A stretch of 64,000 nt of DNA from an uncultured bacterium (GTDB lineage Bacteria > Actinomycetota > Coriobacteriia > Coriobacteriales > Coriobacteriaceae). The notes under the pieces were generated by a model, which was given only the letters and a program-made list of their open reading frames with translations, was not told the DNA's origin and made no database searches. The stretch's first letter is position 1. Every line of letters begins with the position of its first letter. The position numbers and the translations under genes are program-made. Shown piece after piece: positions 122-60,802 of the stretch. The stretch spans positions 85,227 to 149,226 of the forward strand of contig CAJMQJ010000002.1 of assembly GCA_905215525.1 (NCBI GenBank), read 5' to 3'.

Positions 122-1213
122 GTGTTTGGTTTGTCTTTATCCCATCCTTTGCCTCGCGAGCTGACGCGCCCCGTGCATGTGGGCAGCGTGCAGATCGGTG
201 GCGGCGCGCCTGTGGTGGTCCAATCTATGACCTGCACCGATACTGCTGATGCCCAGGCAACGCTTGCGCAGGTGTGCGCGTTGGCGCAGGCTGGCTGCGA
301 TATCGTGCGCGTGAGTGTGCCCACCGAGGCCGCACTTGAGGGTTTCCGCACCATCTGCGCCGAGTCTCCGGTGCCGATTGTCGCCGATATCCACTTTAAC
401 CATAAACTCGCCATTGGTGCCGTTGAGGCCGGTGCTGCCAAGCTGCGCATCAATCCCGGCAATATTGGCGATTGGGCCAAGGTTGACGCGGTGATCGATG
501 CTGCGGGTGCCGCGGGCTGTGCGATTCGTATCGGCGTCAATGCCGGTTCGCTTGAGCAGGATATCGCCGAGCGCGACGACCTCACGCAGCCCGAAAAGCT
601 CGTGATGTCGAGTGAACGCTTTGTGCGGCACTTTGAGGACCGTGGGTTTACCAACATCGTGCTATCCGCCAAGGCCCATAGCGTACAGACGACACTTGAT
701 ACCTATCGCGCCCTGTCGCGCGAGATACCGCATGTTCCGCTCCACCTGGGCGTGACGGAGGCGGGGACCAAGCTTCAGGGCACCATCAAGAGCTCTGTAG
801 GCTTGGGTATCTTGCTTTCCGAAGGCATCGGTGACACCATGCGTGTGTCGCTCACGGCCGATCCGGTTGAGGAGCCGCCGGTCGCCTGGGGAATTCTACA
901 GTCGCTGGGCCTGCGTCGCCGTGGTCCCGAGATTGTCTCGTGCCCCACGTGCGCCCGCTGCCAGGTTAACCTGATTCCCATCGCCGAGGAGGTCACCGAG
1001 CGGCTTAAGAACTATTCCGCGCCGCTTTCGATCGCCGTGATGGGATGTGCGGTCAACGGCCCCGGAGAGGCATCTGACGCCGACCTGGGTGTTGCCTGCG
1101 GACGTGGTCAGGGCCTGCTCTTTTCGCATGGCCAGATCATTGGTAAAGTAGCTGAGGATCAAATTGTCGACGCGCTTATGGCCGAGGTCGACAAACTTAT
1201 TGAGGAGAAATAA
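122..1213 (+). CDS. ispG: 4-hydroxy-3-methylbut-2-enyl diphosphate synthase IspG (GcpE)
   Basis: ORF track 44..1213. Motifs VHVGSVQIGGGAPVVVQSMTCTDT and C-terminal CxxC…C cluster typical of IspG. The ORF-track start overlaps the upstream gene, so the likely start is GTG 122 or TTG 131 after SD GGGGGAG. The stop overlaps the proS start. Confidence 0.9.
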   Translation: MFGLSLSHPLPRELTRPVHVGSVQIGGGAPVVVQSMTCTDTADAQATLAQVCALAQAGCDIVRVSVPTEAALEGFRTICAESPVPIVADIHFNHKLAIGAVEAGAAKLRINPGNIGDWAKVDAVIDAAGAAGCAIRIGVNAGSLEQDIAERDDLTQPEKLVMSSERFVRHFEDRGFTNIVLSAKAHSVQTTLDTYRALSREIPHVPLHLGVTEAGTKLQGTIKSSVGLGILLSEGIGDTMRVSLTADPVEEPPVAWGILQSLGLRRRGPEIVSCPTCARCQVNLIPIAEEVTERLKNYSAPLSIAVMGCAVNGPGEASDADLGVACGRGQGLLFSHGQIIGKVAEDQIVDALMAEVDKLIEEK

Positions 1214-2935
1214 ATGACCCGAGCAATGTATATGTCTAAGCTCTATGCGCCGACGCTCAAAGAGGATCCGGCGGATGCCGAGCTAGCGAGCCACCGTCTG
1301 CTGCTTCGCGCTGGCATGATCCGCAAGGAGGCCGCCGGCCTGTATTCCTATCTGCCGCTCGCTTGGCGCTCGATCCGCAAGATCGAGAACATCGTGCGCG
1401 ACGAGATGGATGCCGCCGGTGCTCAGGAGCTCATGATGCCCATCATGGTCGATGCCGAGCTGTGGCGTGAGTCCGGCCGTATCGATGCCTATGGCAAGGA
1501 GCTTGTGCGCTTTGATGACCGCCACGGCCGCGAGTTTGTGCTCGGACCCACGCACGAGGAGACCGTGACTGCCCTGGTGCGCAATGAGTTGCGTTCCTAC
1601 AAGCAGCTGCCAGTGAACCTCTATCACATCCAGGATAAGTTCCGCGACGAGTTCCGTCCCCGTTTTGGCCTGATGCGCGGTCGCGAGTTCATCATGAAGG
1701 ACGCCTACAGCTTCTCTGCCACGCAGGAGAGCCTGCAGGAGGAGTACGACAAGATGAAGCAGGCCTACGCTAACATCTGCGAGCGCTGCTACATCAAGGC
1801 TCTGCCCGTTGTCGCCGACTCCGGCGAGATCGGTGGCGATACCTCCGTCGAGTACATGGCTCTGGCTGACGCTGGCGAGGCCTCGCTCGTCTACTGCGAC
1901 GATTGCGGTTTTGCCGCCGATGACGAGGCTGCAAGCACCAAGATCGTTGTGACCGAGGGCCCCGGCGACGGCACGCTCACCAAGGTCGAGACTCCGGGTA
2001 TGGGTACCATTGAGGCCGTCGCCAAGTTCTTTGGCTTCCCCGAGAACGGTACGCGAAAGTCGCTGGCGCTCATCGATGCCGAGGGCAAGCCCGTCGTGGC
2101 CATTGTCCCGGGCGATCATGAGCTCAACGACTGCAAGGCCGAGCATGTCTTTGGCAAGGGCTATCGCATGATGACCGACGAGGAGCTCCAGGCCTACGGG
2201 CTGCATAAGGGCTTTATCGGACCTGTTAACCTGCCCGAGGGCATTCGTCTGGTTTGCGACGAGAGCCTGCACGAGTCCAAGCAGTGGGCCTGTGGCGCCA
2301 ACGAGGCCGACTACCACTTTACCGGTGCCTGCCCCGAGCGCGACTTTACCGTCGATGAGTGGGCCGACCTAGTCACCGTCGTCGCCGGCGATCCCTGCCC
2401 GCACTGCGGCAAGCCGCTCTCTGCTGCCCGCGGCATCGAGGTCTCCCAGGTGTTCCAGCTGGGCACCAAGTATTCCGAGGCTATGGGTGCCACCTTTATG
2501 GACGAGGACGGCAAGGAGAAGCCGCTCGTCATGGGTTGCTACGGCGTTGGTGTGTCCCGCTCGCTTGCTGCCGTCGTGGAGCAGCACAACGACGAACACG
2601 GCATCGTCTGGCCGGTCTCCGTTGCCCCGTACGAGGTCGCGGTGATTCCGCTTGATCCCAAGAAGGAGGAGTGCGCTACCGTCTGCGATCAGATTGTTGA
2701 CGGTCTGTGCGCCGAGGGTATCGAGGTCGTCGTCGACGATCGCGACGAGCGTCCCGGCTTTAAGTTTGCCGATAACGACCTCATGGGCTTCCCGTATCAG
2801 GTCGTTCTGGGCAAGCGCGGCCTTAAGAATGGCACGGTGGAGCTCAAGGACCGTGCTACCGGCGAGCGTGAGGACGTGGCGATCGATGAGATCGTCGCTA
2901 AGGTCGCCGAGCTTGTGAAGGCAGCACGCCGTTAA
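1214..2935 (+). CDS. proS: Proline--tRNA ligase (bacterial-type ProRS with editing domain)
   Basis: 573 aa. N-terminus MSKLYAPTLKEDPADAELASHRLLLRAGMIRK and class II aaRS motifs. Immediately follows ispG. Confidence 0.95.
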   Translation: MTRAMYMSKLYAPTLKEDPADAELASHRLLLRAGMIRKEAAGLYSYLPLAWRSIRKIENIVRDEMDAAGAQELMMPIMVDAELWRESGRIDAYGKELVRFDDRHGREFVLGPTHEETVTALVRNELRSYKQLPVNLYHIQDKFRDEFRPRFGLMRGREFIMKDAYSFSATQESLQEEYDKMKQAYANICERCYIKALPVVADSGEIGGDTSVEYMALADAGEASLVYCDDCGFAADDEAASTKIVVTEGPGDGTLTKVETPGMGTIEAVAKFFGFPENGTRKSLALIDAEGKPVVAIVPGDHELNDCKAEHVFGKGYRMMTDEELQAYGLHKGFIGPVNLPEGIRLVCDESLHESKQWACGANEADYHFTGACPERDFTVDEWADLVTVVAGDPCPHCGKPLSAARGIEVSQVFQLGTKYSEAMGATFMDEDGKEKPLVMGCYGVGVSRSLAAVVEQHNDEHGIVWPVSVAPYEVAVIPLDPKKEECATVCDQIVDGLCAEGIEVVVDDRDERPGFKFADNDLMGFPYQVVLGKRGLKNGTVELKDRATGEREDVAIDEIVAKVAELVKAARR

Positions 2936-2965
2936 TCGACATTTCTGCTAGTAGATGTAATTGCG

Positions 2966-3013
2966 GGACTGCCCCGTATCTCTCTTAGGATGAGATGCGG
3001 GGCAGTCCTTTTT
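2966..3013 (+). terminator. Rho-independent terminator of proS
   Basis: Long GC-rich hairpin GGACTGCCCCG…CGGGGCAGTCC with an inner ATCTC/GAGAT extension, followed by TTTTTGTTG. Located 30 nt after the proS stop. Confidence 0.7.
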
Positions 3014-3043
3014 GTTGCGTGAATTAGCTCGACGGGTAAAAGA

Positions 3044-3077
3044 AAACCCCACAGCCCATATGAGCTGTGGGGTTTTC
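3044..3077. terminator. Bidirectional hairpin terminator (AAAACCCCACAGC…GCTGTGGGGTTTT)
   Basis: 9-13 bp stem flanked by an A-run on one side and a T-run on the other. Sits just downstream of the minus-strand APH-like gene stop at 3112. Confidence 0.6.
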
Positions 3078-3111
3078 TTGTGCCTCCGATGCGAAATAAA
3101 TCGCTCAGATA

Positions 3112-3876
3112 TTACTGATAATCGACGACGTCGATCCAGTTCTTCAGGAACTCATCGTTCACGTTGCGCTTACGAGCGAGCTCGGAAGCGGCGACGATGC
3201 TCGTCCACTGACGCATGACCTGCATGGGCATGTCGGCGCGGTCGCAGTAGAGCTCCAGGTAGGCCTCAGCCTGATCCTTGCTGTTGAGGGCGAAGAGCAG
3301 GTAGGTGGTGGCAACGTCGGCAGCAGGGGAGCCCTGGGTGGCGTGTGCCCAGTCGCACACATAGAGCTGGCCGTCGTCGCCGACGATGACGTTGGAGGGG
3401 TTGAAGTCGCCGTGGCAGACCTTGAACTCCTTGGTCATTCCGTCCAGACGCTCCTGAAGGTTGTAGCGCGTGGTGGCATTGAGCTGATCAAGGCTGTCGA
3501 TCATGCGGGCGAACTTGTCGCGCTGACGGTTGAGCAGCGGGGAGGTGTAGCCGTGGATCTCGATCTGGAGGTCGACGAACATCTCGAGATACTCACCAAA
3601 GCGCTGGGGCTCGGCAGTCATCTTCTCGGCAAGGGTGGTGCCCGGAACCTTCTCGGTCACGAGCGCCCAGCCGTTGGCGTTCTCGAGCTGGGAAACCTCG
3701 AGAGCCTTGGGGCTGCGGATGCCGCACTCATTGATGCGGGCAAGATTCAAAGCCTCGTTGAACACGTCGGAGACAGGCTTGGTCTCGTTAAAGACCTTGA
3801 CGATCTTGTCGCCCAGGTCGTAAACGACCTTGTTGCCACGGCGGACGAGCTCGGTCTTGGAATCGGGTAGCAGCAT
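3112..3876 (-). CDS. Aminoglycoside/choline-kinase-like phosphotransferase (APH/ChoK family), substrate unknown
   Basis: 254 aa. Brenner-type catalytic motif HGDFNPSNVIV and a DW… motif (VCDWAHA), typical of the APH/CotS/ChoK kinase fold. Monocistronic and flanked by terminators. Confidence 0.7.
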   Translation of the reverse strand: MLLPDSKTELVRRGNKVVYDLGDKIVKVFNETKPVSDVFNEALNLARINECGIRSPKALEVSQLENANGWALVTEKVPGTTLAEKMTAEPQRFGEYLEMFVDLQIEIHGYTSPLLNRQRDKFARMIDSLDQLNATTRYNLQERLDGMTKEFKVCHGDFNPSNVIVGDDGQLYVCDWAHATQGSPAADVATTYLLFALNSKDQAEAYLELYCDRADMPMQVMRQWTSIVAASELARKRNVNDEFLKNWIDVVDYQ

Positions 3877-3909
3877 GGTTGCATCCTTTCAACGATGCGA
3901 TAGAAGCGA

Positions 3910-3946
3910 CGGCGGGGGTGTGTGAAACACCCGTGCACCCCCGCCG
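3910..3946 (-). terminator. Hairpin downstream of adhE (CGGCGGGGGTG…CACCCCCGCCG), a possible terminator with a weak U-tract
   Basis: 11 bp perfect GC-rich stem between the adhE stop (3965) and the APH-like gene start (3876). The U-tract on the adhE strand is poor. Confidence 0.35.
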
Positions 3947-3964
3947 TTAAAAACCGTGCTAAAA

Positions 3965-6613
3965 CTAGCAGACGGCGTAGTCCTGAGGCTCGCGGCCGTA
4001 GTAGGCGTCCAGGTAGAGCTCCTTGATCTCGCTCATGAGCGGGTAGCGCGGGTTTGCGCCGGTGCACTGGTCGTTGAATGCCTGCTCGGTCATCTCGTCG
4101 AGGGTGTCGAGGAAGTACTGCTCGTCAACACCGTAGTCGGCGATGGTCTTCTTGACGCCGATGAAGTCCTTGAGCTCCTCGAGCTTCGTGATGAAGTTCT
4201 CGAAGACCTCCTTGTCGTCCTTGCCCTCGATGCCGCAGTACTTGGCCATCTCGGCGTAGTTGTGCAGCGCGTTGGGGTAAGGATACTGGGAGAAGGTACC
4301 CATCTTGACGGGAGCCTCGGCGGCGTTGTAGCGCATAACGCGGGTCAGGATGACGGCGTTGGCGAGGCCGTGGGGCAGGTGATGGAAGGCGCCGAGCTTG
4401 TGAGCCATGGAGTGGTTGAGGCCCAGGAAGGCGTTGGCGAAGGCCATACCGGCCATGCAAGAGGCGTTGTGCATCTCCTCGCGGGCATGCGGGTCCTTGG
4501 CGCCGTTCGTGAAGCTGGAGGGCAGGTTCTCGAAGACGAGCTTAGCAGCGCGCTCGGAGAGGCCCTTGGTGTAGTCGGAAGCCATGATGGAGACGTAGGA
4601 CTCGATGGCGTGGGTCATGACGTCGATGCCGGAGGCAGCGGTCAGGCCGCGCGGGGCGGTCATGCAGTTGTCGGCGTCGACGATAGCCATGTTGGGGAGC
4701 AGCGCGTAGTCGGCGAGCGGCCACTTGATGCCGGTCTCCTTGTCGGTGATGATGGCGAACGGCGTGCACTCGGAGCCGGTACCCGAAGAGGTCGGGACGG
4801 CGACGAAGTAGGCCTTCTTGCCCATCTCGGGGAAAGTGAAGATACGCTTGCGGATGTCCATGAAGTCCATGGCCATGTCCTCAAACTTGCACTCGGGGTG
4901 CTCGTACATCATCCACATGATCTTGCCGGCGTCCATAGCGGAGCCACCGCCGACGGCGATGATCACGTCAGGCTCAAAGAGAGCCATCTGCTTGGCGCCG
5001 CGACGTGCGCACTGCAGCGACGGATCGGGCTCGACGTCGTAGAAGCAGTCGTGGGCGATGCCCATCTCGTCGAGCTTGGCCTCGATGGCGCGGGTGTTGC
5101 CATTCTTGAAGAGGAACTGGTCGGTGACGATGAAGGCGCGCTTCTTGCCCATGACGGTACCGAGCTCGTCGAGGGCGACGGGCGTGGAACCCTTCTTGAA
5201 GTAGACCTTCTCGGGAGCGCGGAACCACAGCATGTTCTCACGGCGCTCGGCCACAGTCTTAACGTTGATCAAGTGCTTCACCCCAACGTTCTCGGAGACG
5301 GAGTTGCCGCCCCAGGAGCCGCAGCCCAGGGTCAGAGACGGCTTCATGCCAAAGTTGTACAGATCACCGATGCCGCCGTGCGAGGACGGGGTGTTGATGA
5401 CGATACGGCAGGCCTTCATGACGTGCTCGAACAGACTGATCTTCTCGGCCTGGGCGGGGTGCACGTACAGAGAGGCGGTGTGGCCCGGGCCACCGGCGAG
5501 CACCAGGTGCTCGGCCTTGTCGACGGCCTCCTGGAAGTCCTTGGCGTGATACATGGCCAGGACCGGGGAGAGCTTCTCGTGGGAGAACTCTTCCTTGGCG
5601 GGGTCGGTGGAGGTGACCTCGGCGATCAGGATCTTGGTCTTGGCGGGAACCTCGATGCCGGCGAGCTCGGCGATCTTGGCGGCAGCCATGCCGGGAATGC
5701 GGTGATCGAGGGCGCCGTTCTTGAACATGGCGGCACGCAGGGCCTCCATCTCGGCACCCTGCTTGACGAAATAGCAGCCGCGCTTCTGGAACTCGGCCTT
5801 AACCTGGTCATAGATGGTGTCGATGACGGTCACGGACTGCTCGGAAGCGCAGATCATGCCGTTGTCGAAGGTCTTGGAGTGGATGATGGAGTTGACGGCG
5901 AGCAGCACGTCGGCGGTGTCGTCGATGACGACCGGGGTGTTACCGGCGCCAACGCCCAGGGCGGGCTTGCCCGAGGAGTAGGCGGCCTTGACCATGCCCG
6001 GGCCACCGGTGGCGAGGATGATGTCGACGTCGCGCATGACCATGTTGGTCAGCTCGATGGAGGGGACATCGACCCAGCCGATGATACCCTCGGGGGCGCC
6101 GGCCTTGACGGCGGCGTCAAGCACGAGCTTGGCGGCGGCGATGGTGCACTTGGCGGCAGCCGGGTGCGGGGAGATGATGATGGCGTTGCGGGTCTTCAGG
6201 CTGATCAGTGTCTTGAAGATCGCAGTGGAGGTGGGGTTGGTCGTCGGGATGACGGCGCCCACGATACCGATGGGCTCGGCGATCTTGGTGATGCCATAAG
6301 CCTCGTCGCGCTCCAGGACACCACAGGTCTTGGTGTTCTTGTAAGCGTTGTAGATGTACTCTGCGGCGTAGTGGTTCTTGATGACCTTGTCCTCAAGAAC
6401 GCCGCGGCCGGTCTCCTCGATGGCCATCTTCGCCAACGGGATACGAGCCTTGTTGGCGGCCATGGCGGCCTCATAGAAGATCTTGTCGACCTGCTCCTGC
6501 GTGTACGTAGCAAAAAGCGCCTGGGCCTCTCGCATCTGAGCGAGCTTAGCCTCAAGCGCCTCTACGTTGTCCACAATTGCGGGAGTAGTGTTTTCCGGTG
6601 ACTTTTTCACCAT
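3965..6613 (-). CDS. adhE: Bifunctional acetaldehyde-CoA/alcohol dehydrogenase AdhE
   Basis: 882 aa. N-terminal ALDH domain and C-terminal Fe-ADH domain. High-confidence family match by sequence character (e.g. GGGSAMDAGK, HxxxH iron-site motifs). Confidence 0.95.
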   Translation of the reverse strand: MVKKSPENTTPAIVDNVEALEAKLAQMREAQALFATYTQEQVDKIFYEAAMAANKARIPLAKMAIEETGRGVLEDKVIKNHYAAEYIYNAYKNTKTCGVLERDEAYGITKIAEPIGIVGAVIPTTNPTSTAIFKTLISLKTRNAIIISPHPAAAKCTIAAAKLVLDAAVKAGAPEGIIGWVDVPSIELTNMVMRDVDIILATGGPGMVKAAYSSGKPALGVGAGNTPVVIDDTADVLLAVNSIIHSKTFDNGMICASEQSVTVIDTIYDQVKAEFQKRGCYFVKQGAEMEALRAAMFKNGALDHRIPGMAAAKIAELAGIEVPAKTKILIAEVTSTDPAKEEFSHEKLSPVLAMYHAKDFQEAVDKAEHLVLAGGPGHTASLYVHPAQAEKISLFEHVMKACRIVINTPSSHGGIGDLYNFGMKPSLTLGCGSWGGNSVSENVGVKHLINVKTVAERRENMLWFRAPEKVYFKKGSTPVALDELGTVMGKKRAFIVTDQFLFKNGNTRAIEAKLDEMGIAHDCFYDVEPDPSLQCARRGAKQMALFEPDVIIAVGGGSAMDAGKIMWMMYEHPECKFEDMAMDFMDIRKRIFTFPEMGKKAYFVAVPTSSGTGSECTPFAIITDKETGIKWPLADYALLPNMAIVDADNCMTAPRGLTAASGIDVMTHAIESYVSIMASDYTKGLSERAAKLVFENLPSSFTNGAKDPHAREEMHNASCMAGMAFANAFLGLNHSMAHKLGAFHHLPHGLANAVILTRVMRYNAAEAPVKMGTFSQYPYPNALHNYAEMAKYCGIEGKDDKEVFENFITKLEELKDFIGVKKTIADYGVDEQYFLDTLDEMTEQAFNDQCTGANPRYPLMSEIKELYLDAYYGREPQDYAVC

Positions 6614-33346: not shown

Positions 33347-35593
33347 ATGACACTCGTATCCAAGACCTTTGAGCTGTACGGCAAGACCTACACCTTTGAG
33401 TCGGGCGAGCTTGCCAAGCAGGCCACCGGCGCCTGCCTGGTCAAGCAGGGCGACACCACGATGCTCGACACCGTGGTCGTCTCCAAGGAGCGCAAGAACT
33501 ACGACTTCTTCCCGCTGACCGTCGACTTCAACGAGAAGATGTACGCCGCCGGCCGCATCCCGGGTGGCTACCTCAAGCGTGAGGGCCGTCCCAGTGAGAA
33601 GGCCACGCTCACCGCGCGCATGATCGACCGTCCGATTCGCCCGAGCTTCCCGGACGGCTTCCGCAACGAGGTACACATCGTCGCTACCTCGCTCGTCGCC
33701 GACCAGGTCAACCCCTTTGACGTCATCAACGTCATGGGTGCCTCCCTGGCCATGACGCTCGGCGGCGTGCCCTTCGAGGGCCCGCTTGCCTGCGTGCGCA
33801 TCGGCCGTAACGTGGAGACCGGCGAGTTTATCGTCAACCCCACCTACGAGGAGCGCGAGAACTCCGACCTGGACCTGGAGCTGGGCGGCTCTGCCGACTT
33901 CATCTCGATGGTCGAGGCCGGCGCCGAGGAGATCTCCGAGGACGACATGCTCGCCGCCATGAAGTTTGGCCAGGAGGCCCTTGCCGCCTTCTGCCAGGCC
34001 CAGGACGAGTTCGTTGCCGAGTGGGAGCAGGTCAATGGCGCCATCGTCAAGAAGGAGTACCCGCTCGACCAGCCCGTCGAGGAGGTCCAGGAGCGCATCT
34101 TCGCCCACTACGACGAGATGGCCGCCGCCCTTCGCGATGCCGACAAGCTCTCCCGTATCGGTAAGGTCGAGGCTCTGAAGGAGTCCATCCGTGCCGAGTT
34201 CACCGAGGAGGAGCAGGCCGCTTGGGAGCGCGAGATCCCCGTGGCGCTCAAGAAGCTCGAGAAGAAGGCTATGCGCACCATGGTCGTCGAGACCGGCGAG
34301 CGCGTCGACGGTCGTGCCGCCGATGAGATTCGCCCCATCATGGTGAAGGATAACTACCTGCCGCTCGTTCACGGCTCCGGTCTGTTCCAGCGTGGCCAGA
34401 CCCAGGTGCTTTCCGTCCTGTCGCTCGGTATGCTCAACGAGGGTCAGCGTCTGGATACCATCGAGCCCACCGAGGGCAAGCGCTATATGCACCACTACAA
34501 CTTCCCGCCGTTCTGCACCGGCGAGACTGGCCGCATGGGCAGCCCCAAGCGCCGCGAGATCGGCCACGGCAACCTGGCCGAGCGCGCCCTGCTCCCGGTG
34601 CTCCCCGACGAGAACGAGTTCCCCTACGCTATTCGCGTGGTCTCCGAGGTCATGGAGTCCAACGGCTCCTCTTCGATGGCTTCGACCTGCGGCTCCACGC
34701 TCGCCCTTATGGACGGCGGCGTGCCTATTAAGCGCCCGGTCTCCGGTATCGCCATGGGCCTGATCCAGGAGGAGGGCAAGACCGTGGTCCTGTCCGATAT
34801 CCAGGGTCTCGAGGACTTCCTGGGCGACATGGACTTTAAGGTCACCGGCACCACCGAGGGCATCACCGCCCTGCAGATGGACAACAAGGCCACCGGTCTT
34901 ACCTTCGACATCTTGGCCCGCGCCCTGCAGCAGGCCAAGGAGGGTCGCGCCTTCATCCTGCAGAAGATGCTCGATGTGATCCCCGAGCCGCGCCACACCA
35001 CGCGCAGCACCGCTCCGCGCATCGTCTCCATCCAGGTTCCGACCGACAAGATCCGCGACGTTATCGGTTCTGGTGGTAAGGTCATCCGCGGCATCCAGGA
35101 CGAGACCGGTGCCTCGGTCGACATCCAGGAGGACGGCACCGTCTTTGTCGGCGGCACCGGCGAGTCCGTCGACCAGGCTGTCGAGCGCATCAAGCTCATC
35201 ATCAAGGTTCCCGAGCCGGGCGAGGAATACACCGGTCGCGTTGTCTCCATCCAGCCCTTCGGTGCCTTCGTGAACCTTCTGCCCGGTAAGGACGGCCTGC
35301 TCCACATCTCCCGCGTCGCCAAGGGCCGCGTGGAGAAGGTCGAGGACGTCCTCAACGTGGGCGACGAGGTCAAGGTCGTCGTCATCGAGGTCGACGACCG
35401 TGGCAAGATCTCGCTCGATCGTCTTGACAAGCCTGAGGCCCCGGCTCGCGCCGAGGGTGCCTCCGAGGGCGACGGCGAGCACTTCCAGCGTCGTGAGCGT
35501 CCGCGTCGCGAGCGCTCCGAGCGCAGCGACCGTCCGCGCCGTCCCGGCGACAACGGAGGCCGCAAGCCCCGCCGCCACCACGACGCCGAGTAA
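33347..35593 (+). CDS. pnp: Polyribonucleotide nucleotidyltransferase (PNPase) with Arg-rich C-terminal tail
   Basis: Two RNase PH domains plus KH and S1 domains. C-terminal RRERPRRERSERSDRPRRPGDNGGRKPRRHH low-complexity basic tail. Confidence 0.95.
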   Translation: MTLVSKTFELYGKTYTFESGELAKQATGACLVKQGDTTMLDTVVVSKERKNYDFFPLTVDFNEKMYAAGRIPGGYLKREGRPSEKATLTARMIDRPIRPSFPDGFRNEVHIVATSLVADQVNPFDVINVMGASLAMTLGGVPFEGPLACVRIGRNVETGEFIVNPTYEERENSDLDLELGGSADFISMVEAGAEEISEDDMLAAMKFGQEALAAFCQAQDEFVAEWEQVNGAIVKKEYPLDQPVEEVQERIFAHYDEMAAALRDADKLSRIGKVEALKESIRAEFTEEEQAAWEREIPVALKKLEKKAMRTMVVETGERVDGRAADEIRPIMVKDNYLPLVHGSGLFQRGQTQVLSVLSLGMLNEGQRLDTIEPTEGKRYMHHYNFPPFCTGETGRMGSPKRREIGHGNLAERALLPVLPDENEFPYAIRVVSEVMESNGSSSMASTCGSTLALMDGGVPIKRPVSGIAMGLIQEEGKTVVLSDIQGLEDFLGDMDFKVTGTTEGITALQMDNKATGLTFDILARALQQAKEGRAFILQKMLDVIPEPRHTTRSTAPRIVSIQVPTDKIRDVIGSGGKVIRGIQDETGASVDIQEDGTVFVGGTGESVDQAVERIKLIIKVPEPGEEYTGRVVSIQPFGAFVNLLPGKDGLLHISRVAKGRVEKVEDVLNVGDEVKVVVIEVDDRGKISLDRLDKPEAPARAEGASEGDGEHFQRRERPRRERSERSDRPRRPGDNGGRKPRRHHDAE

Positions 35594-35618
35594 CAGCCGT
35601 ACATAACCAGCACCGCAA

Positions 35619-35647
35619 GGGCGACTCCGGACAGGGGTCGCCCTTTT
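35619..35647 (+). terminator. Rho-independent terminator of pnp
   Basis: GGGCGAC-loop-GTCGCCC followed by TTTT. The T-run merges into the left arm of the palindromic element. Confidence 0.7.
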
Positions 35648-35784
35648 GCTTGCGCCCGGGAGGGTCGCATATGAAGTTTCCTGCTCTACAGTCCTGCGCA
35701 AGACGGAAAGCACATTAAGTGCTTTCCTTTGCGTGCGGAACTCGCGATAAACTTCATATGCGGCCCTCCCGGGCGCAAGCAAAA
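35644..35784. repeat. Palindromic element copy 1 (family P1): 36 bp near-perfect inverted arms flanking a 69 bp core that carries an internal hairpin
   Basis: Left arm TTTTGCTTGCGCCCGGGAGGGTCGCATATGAAGTTT (35644-35679). Right arm (35749-35784) is its reverse complement with one mismatch. Inner hairpin GGAAAGCAC-ATTA-GTGCTTTCC. Confidence 0.8.
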
Positions 35785-35917
35785 GGACTGGTTAGTGCCG
35801 CTCGCTATTTAGTTAGACAGTCTATTCAGTAGTCAGATTTCAGATCTGTAGATAGCCGCAGCAGCATCTTCCCAGATAAAATCGACCAAAATAAACCTGT
35901 CCCTTTTTGGCAGGTTT

Positions 35918-36040
35918 CCCGTGGGGCGGGCACTGATGAAGTTTATCGCGAGTTCCGCACGAACAGGAGGCCACTTAATGTGGCCTCCGTCGTGAGCAGG
36001 ACTGTAGAGCAGGAAACTTCATCAGTGCCCGCCCCACGGG
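35918..36040. repeat. Palindromic element copy 2 (family P1, inverted orientation, diverged arms)
   Basis: 27 bp perfect inverted arms CCCGTGGGGCGGGCACTGATGAAGTTT / AAACTTCATCAGTGCCCGCCCCACGGG. The core is the reverse complement of the copy-1 core with compensatory substitutions in the inner hairpin (GGAGGCCAC-TTAA-GTGGCCTCC). Confidence 0.8.
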
Positions 36041-36233
36041 AAACCGGCGGGATAGACCGGTTTGGATGGGGCTTTGATGCATGGGTGGTCTGTTGGTGGG
36101 CAAATGGGTATCATACTGTGGTTATTGCATCGACTCTGCGATGCATGTTTGTACGTTCCCGGCGGTCGGTTTGCCAGAAGCGCCCCGTCGGTTGTTCCAG
36201 ACCCGTTTCGAAGAAAGGAAACCACACTAACCT

Positions 36234-37904
36234 ATGGCAGCTAAAAAATCATCTCCCTTGAAGATCATCCCGCTTGGCGGCCTTGACGGCATCGGCAAGA
36301 ACATGACGGTCTTCGAGTGCGGCGACGACATGGTGCTCGTCGACGCTGGCCTCATGTTCCCGGATGACTCCCAGCCCGGTATCGACCTGGTGCTTCCCGA
36401 CTACACCTATGTTCTTGAGAACGAGGAGAAGCTCCGCGGCATCATCGTCACCCACGGCCACGAGGACCACACCGGTTCGCTTCCGTATCTGCTGCAGGAC
36501 CTCAACAATAAGGTGCCCATCTTCTCGAGCAAGCTGACGCTCGGCTTTATCGAGGGCAAGCTCTCCGAGTTCCGCATCCGCGCACCCAAGTTCCGTGAGG
36601 TCAAGGGCGGCAGCCATGTCAACCTCGGCGGCATCTCGCTCGACTTCTTCTCGATGACGCACTCCATCCCCGGCGCTCTGGGTGTGTTCATTCGCACCAA
36701 CCAGGGCACCGTTATGCACACCGGCGACTTTAAGCTCGACCAGACGCCCATCGACGGCGTCACGCCCGACTATGCCGCTATCAGCCGTTTTGCCAAGCAG
36801 GGCATCGACCTGCTGCTTTCCGACTCCACCAATGCCACGGTTCCCGGCTTTACCAAGTCCGAGGCCGAGGTTGGTCCCAACCTGTTGCACGCCATCAAGA
36901 ACGCCCCGGGTCGCGTGTTCGTCGCGTCGTTCTCGAGCCACATCCATCGTCTGCAGCAGATCTGCGATGCCGCCCGCATGTGCGGCCGTAAGGTCGTTGT
37001 GACCGGTCGCTCCATGCTCACGAACACCCGCGTGGCGCGTGAGCTGGGCTACCTCAACATCGATGACGCCGATATCATCGATGCCTTCGATATCGATAAC
37101 CTGCCCGACGATAAGATTGTCGTCATGTGCACCGGTTCGCAGGGCGAGCCGCTGTCGGCCCTGTCCCGCATGGCCAATGGCGAGCACAAGACGCTCTCCA
37201 TCCACGAGGGCGATACCGTTATCCTTTCGGCAACTCCCGTTCCTGGCAACGAGAAGGCCGTCCAGCAGGTCGTCAACAGCCTGGCCAAGCTCGGCTGCGA
37301 CGTGTGGGATAAGAACCGCGCTCTCGTCCACGTCTCGGGTCACGGTAGCCAGGAGGAGCTCAAGCTCCTGATGGCCATGGCCAAGCCCACGTACTTTATG
37401 CCGGTTCACGGTGAGGCCGTGCATCTGCGCGCCCATGCGCAGCTGGCCCGCAAGATGGGCATCAAGGACGATCATATCTTTATCCTCGATAACGGCGACA
37501 CGCTCGAGATGCGCGGTGGTATCGTCAAGCGCGGTACGCCCGTCGAGTCCGGTGTCGTTTACGTCGACGGCCTGCGTATCGGCGATACCGACCCCATCGT
37601 CCTGCGCGATCGCCAGAAGCTCGCCAACGACGGTATGGTCACGGCCGTTGCCATCGTCTCCCTCAAACACAAGAAGATCGAGGCCATCGAGTTCTCGGGC
37701 CGCGGCGTCTCGTTTGCCATCGACGACCAGTTCTCCGAGGATGCCTCCGCGTCCATTATGAAGACGATCGAGAAGGGTAAGTTTAGCTTTACCAGCAGCG
37801 GTTCCGATGCCATTCGCAAGGCCGTGCGCGATTCGCTCTCTAACTTTATCTGGAGCCGTACGCGCACCCGTCCGATGATCATCCCGGTCGTCATGGAGGT
37901 TTAG
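36234..37904 (+). CDS. rnj: Ribonuclease J
   Basis: Metallo-beta-lactamase motif THGHEDHTGSLPYLL, beta-CASP and C-terminal domains. Confidence 0.95.
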   Translation: MAAKKSSPLKIIPLGGLDGIGKNMTVFECGDDMVLVDAGLMFPDDSQPGIDLVLPDYTYVLENEEKLRGIIVTHGHEDHTGSLPYLLQDLNNKVPIFSSKLTLGFIEGKLSEFRIRAPKFREVKGGSHVNLGGISLDFFSMTHSIPGALGVFIRTNQGTVMHTGDFKLDQTPIDGVTPDYAAISRFAKQGIDLLLSDSTNATVPGFTKSEAEVGPNLLHAIKNAPGRVFVASFSSHIHRLQQICDAARMCGRKVVVTGRSMLTNTRVARELGYLNIDDADIIDAFDIDNLPDDKIVVMCTGSQGEPLSALSRMANGEHKTLSIHEGDTVILSATPVPGNEKAVQQVVNSLAKLGCDVWDKNRALVHVSGHGSQEELKLLMAMAKPTYFMPVHGEAVHLRAHAQLARKMGIKDDHIFILDNGDTLEMRGGIVKRGTPVESGVVYVDGLRIGDTDPIVLRDRQKLANDGMVTAVAIVSLKHKKIEAIEFSGRGVSFAIDDQFSEDASASIMKTIEKGKFSFTSSGSDAIRKAVRDSLSNFIWSRTRTRPMIIPVVMEV

Positions 37905-57215: not shown

Positions 57216-57228
57216 GGCGCTCGTATCC

Positions 57229-57336
57229 CTCCCGCCCGGGGCTTACCTATATCATTCCATGCTCAAACATTCTCGCGTCGCTTCGCTCGCTGCGAAACTG
57301 CGCGTGGAACGATATAGGTAAGCCCCGGGCGGGCGG
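57229..57336. repeat. Palindromic element copy A (family P2): 23 bp inverted arms CCCGCCCGGGGCTTACCTATATC / GATATAGGTAAGCCCCGGGCGGG flanking a 57 bp core
   Basis: Perfect reverse-complement arms, read by eye. Core ATTCCATGCTCAAACATTCTCGCG…CGCGTGGAAC. Confidence 0.8.
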
Positions 57337-57366
57337 CTACTCGCTTGAAACAATATTTACTTTTCT

Positions 57367-57430
57367 AGTAAGTCGATGCGATAAAGGGACGCCTCCTTTG
57401 TCGCATCGACTTACTGTATTTATATTTTTC
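57367..57430 (+). terminator. Long-stem (21 bp) hairpin plus U-tract, probable dut terminator
   Basis: AGTAAGTCGATGCGATAAAGG-GACGCCT-CCTTTGTCGCATCGACTTACT (one G·T wobble), followed by GTATTTATATTTTT. Confidence 0.65.
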
Positions 57431-57490
57431 GGTTTCGCCTTTGCAGATTTTAATGGTGGGGATCCGGTATAGCTGCTAGCACGTAAACGT

Positions 57491-57597
57491 AGCTGCTCGG
57501 CGGGAGCCGCCCATATATCGTTCCACGCGCAGTTTCGCAGCGCAGCGAGAATGTTTGAGCATGGAATGATATATGGGCGGCTCCCGCCGAGCAGCGG
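57491..57597. repeat. Palindromic element copy B (family P2, inverted orientation). 28 bp arms diverged from copy A but still self-complementary; the core has a 9 nt deletion
   Basis: Arms GCTGCTCGGCGGGAGCCGCCCATATATC / GATATATGGGCGGCTCCCGCCGAGCAGC. The core is the reverse complement of the copy-A core minus about 9 nt. Confidence 0.8.
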
Positions 57598-59964: not shown

Positions 59965-60007
59965 GTACGATAATATATCTTATGTAAGGTTGCTATCTTT
60001 AAACATA

Positions 60008-60047
60008 GTGGTTGGACAGTGCATCAATGTGCCGTCCAACCACTTTT
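60008..60047 (+). terminator. Rho-independent terminator after trxB
   Basis: GTGGTTGGAC-(16 nt loop)-GTCCAACCAC followed by TTTT. Confidence 0.7.
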
Positions 60048-60730: not shown

Positions 60731-60802
60731 CCGAGGTATAAGATGGGCGGGATAAAGAGCCAATGGCTCCTTATCCCGCCCATACGTTTGTCTAGTTGGA
60801 TA

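What the first reader, a model, noticed from the sequence alone, without database searches (positions are those of the whole stretch)
35594..36233. Two inverted copies of a large, near-perfect palindromic element with compensatory stem changes between the pnp terminator and rnj
The 640 bp pnp-rnj spacer holds two copies of a 120-140 bp element. Each copy has very long inverted arms (36 bp with 1 mismatch; 27 bp perfect) that end in the shared core …ATGAAGTTT/AAACTTCAT… and flank a 69 bp core. The two cores are reverse complements of each other at about 80% identity. Where they differ inside the inner hairpin, the changes are compensatory (GGAAAGCAC·GTGCTTTCC versus GGAGGCCAC·GTGGCCTCC, and CGCAA·TTGCG versus CACGA·TCGTG). 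This is the signature of selection for secondary structure rather than for primary sequence. The outer arms have diverged completely between copies yet stay perfectly self-complementary within each copy. Three readings are possible: (a) a non-autonomous palindromic mobile element (MITE/REP-like) that inserted twice head-to-head; (b) a structured RNA in the pnp 3'UTR or rnj 5'UTR, where 27-36 bp perfect RNA duplexes would be strong RNase III substrates at a locus encoding two major RNases; (c) a DNA cruciform or protein-binding site. I do not recognise it as a described motif.
Basis: seen in the sequence. Interest (0 to 1): 0.75.

Follow-up and report, generated by a model that had tools for sequence, protein, structure and literature searches.

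The report
Paired hairpin repeat elements in Collinsella
The pnp–rnj spacer of this gut Collinsella genome holds two copies of an apparently undescribed ~140-bp hairpin-shaped DNA repeat found at a dozen or more intergenic sites per genome, and its long stems seem to stay perfectly paired through DNA-level copying, not because an RNA needs them.

Summary
Two ~140-nt palindromic elements lie at 35642-35786 and 35913-36045, in inverted orientation, each with a long near-perfect stem around a 69-nt centre. They are not specific to pnp/rnj. They belong to a Collinsella-wide repeat family: 120+ loci in GTDB genomes, and at least 13 copies in 700 kb of a finished C. aerofaciens record.

Each copy has a conserved, asymmetric 81-nt core flanked by G+C-rich arms. 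The arms differ at every site yet stay complementary.

- **Insertion/deletion polymorphism:** one site has filled and empty alleles, and the pnp–rnj spacer has a 348-bp deletion allele.
- **Covariation:** it is massive but almost purely Watson-Crick. G·U is no commoner than A·C, and indels are mirrored in both arms.
- **Rate:** the arms diverge at least as fast as the unconstrained spacer.

This points to templated DNA-level maintenance of a palindrome, not selection on an RNA fold. No Rfam family matches, and two literature searches found no description.

Best reading: a new REP/REPIN/MITE-like hairpin repeat family with an inverted conservation pattern (core conserved, arms free). An RNA role as terminator or insulator, or a protein-binding role, is not excluded. 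The apparent core "flip" in some contigs is an assembly artefact.

The parts
35617..35650 (+). pnp intrinsic terminator (12-bp hairpin plus T tract). Its T tail overlaps the outermost bases of copy A's left arm.
   Evidence: (I6). Conserved in all orthologous loci.
35642..35673 (+). Copy A, left arm (32 nt, G+C-rich, 1 mismatch to the right arm).
35674..35754 (+). Copy A, conserved 81-nt asymmetric core (AAGTTT C CTGCTCTACAGTCCTG ... CGTGCGGAACTCGCGA T AAACTT). The inner hairpin is 35705-35713 / 35719-35727 with loop ATTAA. The core is forward on the + strand, sense to pnp.
35755..35786 (+). Copy A, right arm.
35787..35865 (.). A+T-rich spacer with stop codons in all frames. It evolves fast (23-33% divergence between allele classes). 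In one species it is replaced by a 206-aa hexapeptide acetyltransferase gene.
35866..35914 (+). 'T-motif': a separate ~50-nt terminator-like repeat (..CCCAGATAAAAYCGACCAAAATAAACCTGTCCCTTTTTGGCAGG) that recurs at many Collinsella loci. Copy B abuts its hairpin.
   Evidence: 92% conserved against TSDC17.2-1.1.
35913..35938 (-). Copy B, arm on the + strand left side (26 nt, perfect).
35939..36019 (-). Copy B, 81-nt core. It is forward on the - strand (antisense to rnj) and carries inner-hairpin variant GGAGGCCAC/GTGGCCTCC.
36020..36045 (-). Copy B, arm on the + strand right side.
36046..36233 (+). Conserved rnj upstream/leader region. It is not part of the repeat and is nearly invariant among strains. 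The elements lie upstream of it.
   Evidence: invariant columns; 94% identity.

Best explanation
The spacer holds two members of a Collinsella-specific family of intergenic palindromic DNA repeats.

**Anatomy.** Each member is about 130-180 bp. It has a conserved, asymmetric 81-nt core closed by a 6-bp clamp (AAGTTT:AAACTT or a covarying variant). The core sits between two G+C-rich arms of about 20-45 nt. The arms are free in sequence but are copies (reverse complements) of each other.

**How it behaves.** The family acts as non-autonomous, REP/REPIN/MITE-like DNA. Copies lie in intergenic DNA, mostly hard against terminator hairpins or gene ends. They can be gained and lost. Paralogous copies exchange sequence.

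**Shown.**
- The element is multi-copy.
- One site has empty and filled alleles.
- Covariation is Watson-Crick only.
- Indels are mirrored in both arms.
- The arms evolve fast while the core is conserved.

**Inferred.**
- Arm complementarity is kept by a DNA-templated process. Candidates are template switching or hairpin mismatch correction at a quasi-palindrome, or snap-back priming from the clamp so that one arm is copied from the other. It is not kept by selection on an RNA fold.
- The conserved asymmetric core is the part under selection, most likely as the recognition module of a trans-acting protein that acts on the folded single strand.

**At this locus.** The two copies plus the T-motif are passengers between the pnp terminator and the rnj promoter/leader. 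Any effect on pnp 3'-end formation is incidental.
For: **Family and distribution.**
Nearly all are Collinsella.
- These represent at least 10 distinct orthologous sites with different arms.
- The finished C. aerofaciens record NZ_OY725717.1 has 12 BLAST places for the core.
- In the 700 kb of that record that I fetched there are 13 copies. Stems are 23-49 bp with 0-1 mismatch, loops are 64-69 nt, and all arms differ.

**Gain and loss.**
- Site E2 is filled in L044, L066 and L091 and empty in L039, L067, L068, L069 and L128. It is also empty in TSDC17.2-1.1.
- E2 carries the same outer segments as the neighbouring copy E, so the arms travel with the element.
- The 348-bp deletion allele of the pnp–rnj spacer occurs in two samples.

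**DNA-level pairing.**
- In 42 distinct copies, all 26 arm columns show 8-24 double changes but only 0-2 one-sided changes.
- In that alignment I counted about 10 G·U cells, about 9 A·C cells and about 20 other mismatches among 1092 arm cells.
- An independent count over 54 arm pairs gave G·T 18, A·C 11 and other 33.
- A 4-nt indel is mirrored in both arms at site G. The two alleles of site B have 26-nt and 31-nt arms.
- One copy has its core symmetrised into a perfect 24-bp palindrome.

**Rates.**
- Between allele classes the arms diverge 36-48%, the A+T spacer 23-33%, coding sequence 2-8% and the core 10-15%.
- Across species, arms diverge 23% against 6% for the core.

**Known mechanisms.** Template switching at quasi-palindromes and homogenisation of inverted-repeat arms are described in PMC7202029 and PMC8604942.

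**No RNA family.** Rfam gathering and E-value searches gave only spurious long-hairpin hits.
Against: - No mobilising enzyme has been identified. The annotation tables for the 700 kb of NZ_OY725717.1 that I fetched list no product named REP-associated tyrosine transposase. They list one IS200/IS605 tnpA, and an nhmmer core search of that 50-kb stretch found nothing at its flanks.
- No target-site duplication was found. The one insertion junction seen is untidy, with 9-13 nt of the target replaced.
- Copy number is low and most sites are shared across many species, so transposition, if any, is rare.
- The core's conservation and the site choice could instead reflect a host function. Many copies lie just upstream of rpsL, rplC, rplJ, groES, tRNA-Asp and rnj.
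- There is an orientation tendency relative to transcription. Five of six single copies between co-directional genes are antisense, and copies right after stop codons are sense.
- Selection for a hairpin on both strands would also disfavour G·U.
- Most comparative data come from MAGs, where the 81-nt repeat causes contig breaks and chimeric arms.
Confidence: 0.6

Rival explanations
1. Structured RNA or transcription element. The long hairpin acts in RNA as a U-tract-less ('I-shaped') bidirectional terminator or insulator, or as a 3'-end protector against 3'-5' exonucleases. It might also be an RNase III substrate. It would have been spread to the borders of highly expressed operons.
For: - Position: several copies lie 12-50 nt after stop codons in sense orientation (J, manA, tsaD, the gene ending at 870018).
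- Others lie between a gene end and the next strongly expressed operon (rpsL, rplC, rplJ, groES, tRNA-Asp).
- Orientation tends to follow transcription and not replication. Strand counts are 7+/6- on a record with uniformly negative GC skew. The thrC-thrB copy follows the gene strand.
- The RNA fold is very stable.
- A requirement to fold on both strands would also remove G·U pairs.
Against: - There is no wobble enrichment on either strand.
- Mirrored indels occur, and the arms evolve at least as fast as neutral spacer. Stems under selection should evolve more slowly.
- No T tract follows the stem.
- Copy A follows an already complete pnp terminator, and copy B lies upstream of the conserved rnj leader.
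- Natural deletion and empty alleles exist.
- A plain terminator does not explain the conserved asymmetric core.
Confidence: 0.2
2. Host DNA-structural or protein-binding site. The core is bound by a nucleoid-associated or topology-related protein, by analogy with gyrase/IHF binding at BIMEs. Alternatively the palindrome extrudes as a cruciform that absorbs supercoils next to highly transcribed operons.
For: - The asymmetric core has invariant blocks.
- Copies are retained at the same sites across many species.
- Sites are enriched next to very highly expressed operons.
- The A+T-rich centre (ATTAA) of the inner hairpin could nucleate extrusion.
Against: - No protein has been identified.
- A 64-69-nt imperfect centre makes cruciform extrusion from duplex DNA kinetically unlikely (general knowledge, not tested).
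- Presence/absence and deletion alleles show that individual copies are dispensable.
- At least two more families have the same design but different cores. That looks more like families of selfish repeats.
Confidence: 0.1
3. Structure-specific recombination sites that bracket gene cassettes, working like integron attC sites. On this view the pnp–rnj pair is an emptied cassette slot.
For: - In L079 the same two copies bracket a low-G+C 206-aa hexapeptide acetyltransferase gene that ends in the T-motif.
- In L032 two inverted copies bracket a 1374-aa fn3/FG-GAP protein.
- Three pairs (pnp–rnj, tsaD–cstA, family B at dut) all read -> spacer-with-terminator <-.
- The stem sequence is free while the structure is kept, as in attC.
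Against: - No integrase or recombinase is seen next to any copy.
- Most copies are single.
- The ECF sigma pair between E and E2 is present whether or not E2 is filled.
- The spacers of the three pairs are unrelated.
- attC R/L boxes are absent.
Confidence: 0.05
4. Invertible (flip-flop) DNA switch. Recombination between the arms inverts the asymmetric core.
For: Two contigs (L007, L008) show the right-hand core in the opposite orientation inside the same arms.
Against: - Both are Logan contigs. By my recollection these are assembled with k=31, which I did not verify here, and that is shorter than the 32-35-nt arms, so the orientation would be unresolved.
- Among genome assemblies, 382 orthologous pairs have the same orientation and 0 are flipped.
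Confidence: 0.01

Closest known systems
REP / BIME / REPIN elements (RAYT-associated repetitive extragenic palindromes; Bertels & Rainey 2011, PMC3116915; Corneloup et al. 2021, PMC8266576)
   Same: - Extragenic, palindromic and multi-copy.
- Often sit at gene ends or next to terminators, and often occur as inverted doublets.
- Predicted to fold as hairpins in ssDNA.
- Compensatory changes across the hairpin are common.
- Thought to be non-autonomous and mobilised in trans.
   Different: - The conservation pattern is inverted. In REPINs the outer REP 16-mers are invariant and the spacer varies. Here the centre is conserved and the outer arms are free.
- Each unit is about 140 bp, not about 35 bp.
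- There are only about 13 copies per 0.7 Mb.
- No GTAG lies 5' of the palindrome. The conserved tetranucleotide is CTAC on the 5' side.
- No product named REP-associated tyrosine transposase appears in the 700 kb of annotation read.
MITE-like palindromic repeats of similar size (ERIC/IRU, Neisseria Correia elements, pneumococcal RUP/BOX). This comparison rests on my own knowledge.
   Same: - 100-150-bp imperfect palindromes in intergenic, often transcribed DNA.
- Insertion polymorphism between strains.
- Can act incidentally as terminators, promoters or RNase targets.
   Different: - Those families have conserved terminal inverted repeats and, where mobile, defined target duplications.
- Here the termini are the most variable part, and no duplication is seen at the one insertion junction.
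Integron attC sites (comparison from my own knowledge)
   Same: - Recognised as a folded single strand.
- Structure is conserved while stem sequence and length vary widely.
- Flank gene cassettes.
   Different: - No R''/L''-L'/R' boxes in the attC arrangement.
- The conserved part is central, not terminal.
- No integrase or cassette array.
- Copies are scattered among housekeeping operons.
Quasi-palindrome template-switch hotspots and inverted-repeat arm homogenisation (PMC7202029, PMC8604942)
   Same: This mutational process converts imperfect inverted repeats into perfect ones in one step. It would give exactly the mirrored substitutions and indels seen in the arms, and the symmetrised core in L044.
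   Different: It is a mutational mechanism, not an element family. It does not explain the conserved asymmetric core or the multi-copy distribution. It also predicts occasional spacer inversion, which I did not see (0 of 382 pairs).

Membership tests
Any Rfam RNA family | Score at or above the family's gathering threshold | tested here: not met
   Zero hits at gathering threshold in the window and in six related loci apart from a tRNA. At E<=10, only miRNA-precursor and hammerhead-II noise far below threshold.
REP/REPIN (RAYT-associated) | Conserved GTAG tetranucleotide 5' of the palindrome | tested here: not met
   The conserved tetranucleotide next to the inner imperfect palindrome is CTAC on the 5' side (GTAG on the 3' side of the other strand). 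Families B and C lack it.
REP/REPIN (RAYT-associated) | Cognate RAYT (TnpA-REP) gene flanked by the repeats | tested here: inconclusive
   The annotation tables of the 700 kb of NZ_OY725717.1 that I read list no product named REP-associated tyrosine transposase. They list one IS200/IS605 tnpA at 533435-533893, where an nhmmer core search found nothing. 200 kb of that record and the rest of the genome were not examined.
REP/REPIN (RAYT-associated) | High copy number, extragenic, with inverted doublets forming hairpins | tested here: inconclusive
   The element is extragenic and palindromic, and three inverted pairs were seen. However there are only 13 copies in 700 kb, most of them single.
MITE | Terminal inverted repeats conserved among copies and matching a parent IS | tested here: not met
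   The arms differ at every site. No IS with matching ends was found in the loci or the finished record.
MITE | Target-site duplication at insertion | tested here: not met
   Comparing empty and filled alleles at site E2 shows no duplication. Instead 9-13 nt of the terminator tail are replaced. Only one junction was available.
Integron attC | R''(RYYYAAC)...R'(GTTRRRY) boxes in attC order, and an adjacent intI / cassette array | tested here: not met
   The common GTTAAGT...ACTTAAC variant has the opposite order and is absent from many copies. No integrase is nearby.
Intrinsic (rho-independent) terminator | G+C-rich stem directly followed by a T tract | tested here: not met
   No T tract follows either long stem. 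The scan finds only an unrelated hairpin at 36126-36145.
Invertible DNA switch (inverton) | Both orientations of the segment between the inverted repeats occur | tested here: not met
   0 flipped among 382 orthologous pairs. The only flips are in Logan contigs, which by my recollection are assembled with k=31.

The most novel reading that the evidence does not exclude
These elements, together with at least two sister families of the same design in Collinsella, are self-correcting DNA hairpins of a new kind.

- A short conserved asymmetric core is recognised as folded single-stranded DNA by an unknown enzyme.
- The second arm is regenerated from the first by snap-back synthesis primed at the conserved AAGTTT:AAACTT clamp. 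The stem is therefore always perfect but free to drift.
- Inverted pairs act as the ends of small gene cassettes. Examples are the acetyltransferase in L079 and the surface protein in L032.

This would amount to a structure-specific cassette or mobility system in Actinomycetota, unrelated to integrons or RAYT/REP.
Probability: 0.12. Interest if true: 0.8.

Novelty: new variant of a known kind. Interest (0 to 1): 0.5.

Why it matters
- **A caution for RNA-motif hunters.** Long stems with abundant compensatory changes are usually read as proof of a functional RNA. Here the details argue for a DNA-level copying process: no wobble pairs, mirrored indels, and stems that evolve faster than neutral spacer.
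- **A new repeat family in a common gut genus.** It describes an apparently uncatalogued repeat family, plus sister families and a companion terminator-like repeat, in one of the commonest human-gut Actinomycetota.
- **A practical assembly problem.** These repeats systematically break metagenomic assemblies and create chimeric contigs at housekeeping loci (rpsL, rplC, groES, pnp/rnj).
- **A possible new enzyme target.** If the conserved core proves to be the target of a single-strand-specific enzyme, the family would give a compact natural system for studying hairpin-directed DNA transactions and in vivo palindrome maintenance.

Tried and rejected
- **Rfam.** Gathering and permissive searches gave nothing relevant.
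- **Viral and phage collections.** No match.
- **RNase J homologue search for an empty pnp–rnj site in outgroups.** The 120 listed hits were all 99-100% identical, so it was useless for that purpose.
- **Flip-flop switch.** Suggested by L007/L008 and rejected: 0 flips in 382 orthologous pairs, and the flips occur only in Logan contigs, which by my recollection are assembled with k=31.
- **Orientation tied to replication.** Rejected: 7+/6- on a record with uniform GC skew.
- **Arms derived from duplicated target sequence.** Rejected: the empty E2 site shares nothing with the arms, and E2 has the arms and outer segments of paralogue E.
- **Short ORF in the core** (ATG AAG TTT..., 15 codons). Rejected because most copies have TTAAGTTT or TAAGGTT with no ATG.
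- **Promoter in the spacer.** No sigma-70-like site.
- **Chimeric arms in several MAG contigs** (L014, L046, L047, L051, L100, L103, L108). I treated these as assembly artefacts of an 81-nt repeat, not as rearrangements.
- **Literature.** Searches for Collinsella palindromic repeats or MITEs found nothing specific.
- **Not done.** I did not fetch 250-450 kb of NZ_OY725717.1, and I did not use the metagenome scan.
Full report

Yes. The 640-bp gap between the PNPase gene (33347-35593) and the RNase J gene (36234-37904) was identified by Pfam. It contains two long palindromes.

- Copy A has arms 35642-35679 / 35749-35786 (38 nt, one mismatch).
- Copy B has arms 35910-35944 / 36014-36048 (35 nt at 97%, of which 32 nt are perfect).
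- Each pair of arms encloses 69 nt.
- The two units are reverse complements of each other over 113 nt at 81%.
- The frame ATGAAGTTT-N69-AAACTTCAT occurs exactly twice in the window and never in 100 shuffles.
- Folded as single strands, the units reach -60 to -66 kcal/mol, z = -13 to -15.

**2. What the thing is**

Almost all are Collinsella, plus a few evident bin contaminants. Oriented on the core, the copies share an 81-nt unit:

AAGTTT[C/G]CTGCTCTACAGTCCTG...(inner hairpin with loop ATTAA)...CGTGCGGAACTCGCGA[T/C]AAACTT

There are 27 sequence variants of this unit. Outside it lie arms of about 20-35 nt that differ at every genomic site but are complementary within each copy.

At least ten orthologous sites recur across species:
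- 3' of pnp, and upstream of rnj;
- between an amino-acid-binding protein gene and an RNA methyltransferase gene;
- between an ECF sigma/anti-sigma pair and rpsL, and between rpoC and that pair;
- upstream of tRNA-Asp, of rplC and of groES/groEL;
- inside a PTS cluster;
- 30 nt after a 735-aa gene.

A PLSDB record labelled 'plasmid 6' of C. aerofaciens TSDC17.2-1.1 (NZ_OY725717.1, 899,693 bp) is in fact chromosome-like. It gave a finished-quality view.
- The core has 12 BLAST places in it.
- In the 700 kb I fetched there are 13 copies.
- Their stems are 23-49 bp with 0-1 mismatch, their loops are 64-69 nt, and no two arms are alike.
- The closing clamp also covaries (AAGTTT:AAACTT, AAGGTT:AACCTT, TAGTTCG:CGAACTA and others).

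**3. Evidence for gain and loss**

The site between rpoC and the ECF sigma gene (E2) is filled in L044, L066 and L091. It is empty in L039, L067, L068, L069 and L128, and also in TSDC17.2-1.1.

- The empty allele has an intact terminator hairpin plus T tail.
- The filled allele has about 185-200 bp inserted at the 3' foot of that hairpin, replacing 9-13 nt, with no target duplication.
- The inserted DNA carries the same arm type and the same extra outer segments as the neighbouring copy E. The arms are therefore part of the unit that is copied, not duplicated target.

At the pnp–rnj spacer itself several alleles exist.
- The window allele recurs in L001/L002.
- Two samples have a 348-bp deletion that joins ...CCTGCTCTAC to GGGAAACC... 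(L003/L004).
- Discrete allele classes have quite different arms: A vs A2, and B (26 nt) vs B2 (31 nt) vs B3.
- One species has a 206-aa hexapeptide acetyltransferase gene in place of the A+T-rich spacer.

**4. RNA structure or DNA palindrome?**

I built an ungapped alignment of 42 distinct copies (26 + 81 + 26 nt). It was preselected for at most 3 arm mismatches, to drop chimeric MAG contigs.

RNAalifold recovers the long stem and the inner hairpin, and 30 of 50 pairs show double changes. Counting gives 98.4% paired cells against 74% in shuffles and 36-49% when partners are slid. The covariation score is 0.58 against 0.13. The complementarity is therefore beyond doubt.

Its character, however, is not that of an RNA helix.
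- **No wobble preference.** In the 26 arm columns, 8-24 sequences per column carry double changes, but only 0-2 carry a one-sided (wobble) change. Among 1092 arm cells I counted about 10 G·U, about 9 A·C and about 20 other mismatches. An independent count on 54 arm pairs gave G·T 18, A·C 11 and other 33. Wobble pairs are thus no commoner than true mismatches, on either strand.
- **Mirrored indels.** At site G, TSDC17.2-1.1 and L101 have almost identical flanks. Their arms are only about 60% identical and differ by a 4-nt indel present in both arms. Site B alleles have 26-nt or 31-nt arms on both sides.
- **Fast arms.** Between allele classes at pnp–rnj the arms differ by 36-48%, the A+T spacer by 23-33%, and the T-motif and rnj leader by 4-14%. 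Coding DNA differs by 2-8% and the core by 10-15%, mostly in the inner variable part. Across species the means are 23% for arms and 6% for the core. Stems held by selection on pairing should evolve more slowly than neutral DNA, and these do not.
- **A symmetrised copy.** One copy (L044 4796-4936) has had the asymmetric part of its core turned into a perfect 24-bp palindrome.

Together these point to a DNA-templated process that copies one arm from the other. Template switching at quasi-palindromes and homogenisation of inverted-repeat arms are established mutational mechanisms (PMC7202029, PMC8604942).

What this process does not explain is why the asymmetric blocks of the core resist symmetrisation in nearly all copies. 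I infer that they are under selection, most plausibly as a protein recognition module. A conserved clamp next to free arms also suggests snap-back priming as a way to regenerate the second arm. That step is speculation.

**5. Things that could mislead**

Contigs L007 and L008 show the core of copy B flipped within the same arms. They are Logan contigs. By my recollection these are assembled with k=31, which I did not verify here. That is shorter than the arms, so the orientation would be unresolved.

In genome assemblies 382 orthologous pairs agree in orientation and none is flipped. The flip is therefore an artefact and the element is not an invertible switch.

Many loci end inside the element, and several MAG contigs have non-matching arms or join two different sites. 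I read these as assembly chimeras across an 81-nt repeat.

**6. Context and orientation**

The elements sit among housekeeping genes. No transposase, integrase or RT is adjacent to any copy (and the annotation tables 65-69, 73, 83-85, 88-92).

In the finished record the strand split is 7+/6-, although the GC skew is uniformly negative. Orientation therefore does not follow replication. It does tend to follow transcription.
- Five of six single copies between co-directional genes are antisense (upstream of rplC, rpsL, rplJ, groES and thrB).
- Copies in convergent regions lie 12-50 nt after the stop codon of the gene to which they are sense.
- Both pairs (pnp–rnj, and tsaD–cstA at 892321/892597) read: gene -> sense copy, spacer containing a terminator-like hairpin, antisense copy -> gene.

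The numbers are small and I leave this unexplained. It is the main reason I keep an RNA/terminator-insulator reading at about 0.2.

Three copies (B, E, E2) abut the hairpin of a separate 50-nt repeat, the 'T-motif' (window 35866-35914). That motif recurs at many loci, with or without the element.

**7. Sister families**

The window has a second inverted pair of the same design at 57228-57336 and 57492-57595, between dut and a glycosyltransferase gene. Its core is different, and its G+C-rich arms again differ between the two copies. NZ_OY725717.1 has three places for it.

A third family appears in many of the fetched loci, in both orientations and with several arm types. Its core is AACGCGACCCTGCGRAGCCGTGAGCGRG. 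The design 'free complementary arms around a short conserved asymmetric core' is thus a recurrent theme in this genus.

**8. Comparison with known elements**

The closest functional analogues are REP/BIME/REPIN elements. They are extragenic, hairpin-forming, often occur in inverted doublets, and show compensatory changes (PMC3116915). Membership fails on the features I could test.
- The conservation pattern is inverted: the centre is conserved and the ends are free.
- There is no 5' GTAG.
- The units are about 140 bp and low in copy number.
- No product named REP-associated tyrosine transposase appears in the 700 kb of annotation I read.

MITE criteria (family-wide terminal repeats, target duplication) are not met. 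attC boxes and an integrase are absent. The intrinsic-terminator criterion (T tract) is not met. No Rfam family matches.

I therefore file this as a new variant of the known kind 'bacterial palindromic intergenic repeat'. It is not a member of any named family.

**9. Verdict**

- The claim that covariation shows selection for RNA structure is not supported.
- There is no specific link to pnp or rnj.
- Interest is moderate (0.5). The locus is not an RNase-regulatory RNA. The family does seem undescribed, it has an unusual conservation topology, and it gives a clean natural example of DNA-level maintenance of perfect palindromes.

Noticed in passing
window 57228-57336 and 57492-57595 (spacer 57337-57491, with a 21-bp hairpin at 57367-57415): A second inverted pair of a different hairpin element ('family B', core TATATCATTCCATGCTCA...TGCGCGTGGAACGATATA). 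It lies between dut and a glycosyltransferase gene, which are convergent. Its G+C-rich arms differ between the two copies. The design and the -> terminator <- layout are the same as at pnp–rnj. NZ_OY725717.1 has 3 places for it, and none of the first 130 loci fetched has a match.
   Followed up: partly
window 35866-35914; also L039 4160-4210, L064 6258, L072 6314 and many others: A ~50-nt terminator-like repeat ('T-motif', TTTCCCCAGATAAAACCGACCAAAATAAACCTGTCCCTTTTTGGCAGG). It recurs at many Collinsella loci, usually at gene 3' ends. Hairpin elements B, E and E2 are inserted right at the 3' foot of its hairpin.
   Followed up: partly
L020 520-619, L059 2706-2791, L065 7405-7490, L081 1306-1405, L123 1092-1177 and 1993-2078, L053 3754-3843 and 4667-4752: A third family ('C') of the same design. 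Its conserved asymmetric core is AACGCGACCCTGCGRAGCCGTGAGCGRG, between G-rich complementary arms of several types. It occurs in both orientations and often near the tRNA-Asp site.
   Followed up: partly
L079 6814-7434: In one Collinsella species a low-G+C 206-aa hexapeptide-repeat acetyltransferase gene sits between the two pnp–rnj elements, ending directly in the T-motif. In L032 two inverted copies bracket a 1374-aa fn3/FG-GAP protein gene (700-4824).
   Followed up: partly
L003 2098-2389 and L004 1037-1328 (window equivalent 35690-36037 deleted): A natural 348-bp deletion allele. Its left breakpoint falls exactly after the conserved CTCTAC at the foot of the inner imperfect hairpin, and its right breakpoint after CCCCAC in copy B's arm. 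This could be microhomology (AC) slippage or a trace of enzymatic cleavage.
   Followed up: no
L044 4796-4936: This copy has the asymmetric core symmetrised into a perfect 24-bp palindrome (AGTTCCGCACGCAAAGGAAAGCAC TTAAT ...), as expected from a template-switch event.
   Followed up: partly
L007 1-60, L008 1-60; many loci ending inside the element (e.g. L019-L028): The element breaks metagenomic assemblies. It produces flipped cores (in Logan contigs, which by my recollection use k=31), fold-back contig ends (L076, L103) and chimeric joins between different genomic sites (L051, L100, L108).
   Followed up: yes
window 36046-36233: The rnj upstream/leader region is almost invariant among strains, while the DNA just upstream is hypervariable. 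It contains a hairpin plus T-rich tail at 36126-36155. It may be an autoregulatory leader of RNase J.
   Followed up: no
NZ_OY725717.1 (L132-L145): This PLSDB 'plasmid 6' of C. aerofaciens TSDC17.2-1.1 (0.9 Mb) carries rpoBC, most ribosomal protein operons, recA, groEL and other core genes. It is chromosomal DNA mislabelled as a plasmid. In it rpsJ (534102-534410) is separated from rplC (518802-519422) by about 14 kb holding a fab cluster and an IS200/IS605 tnpA (533435-533893).
   Followed up: no
window 3035-3084, 60743-60783, 60007-60044: Further strong hairpins or palindromes (20-25-bp arms with 0-2-nt loops), unrelated in sequence to the elements studied. They are probably terminators.
   Followed up: no
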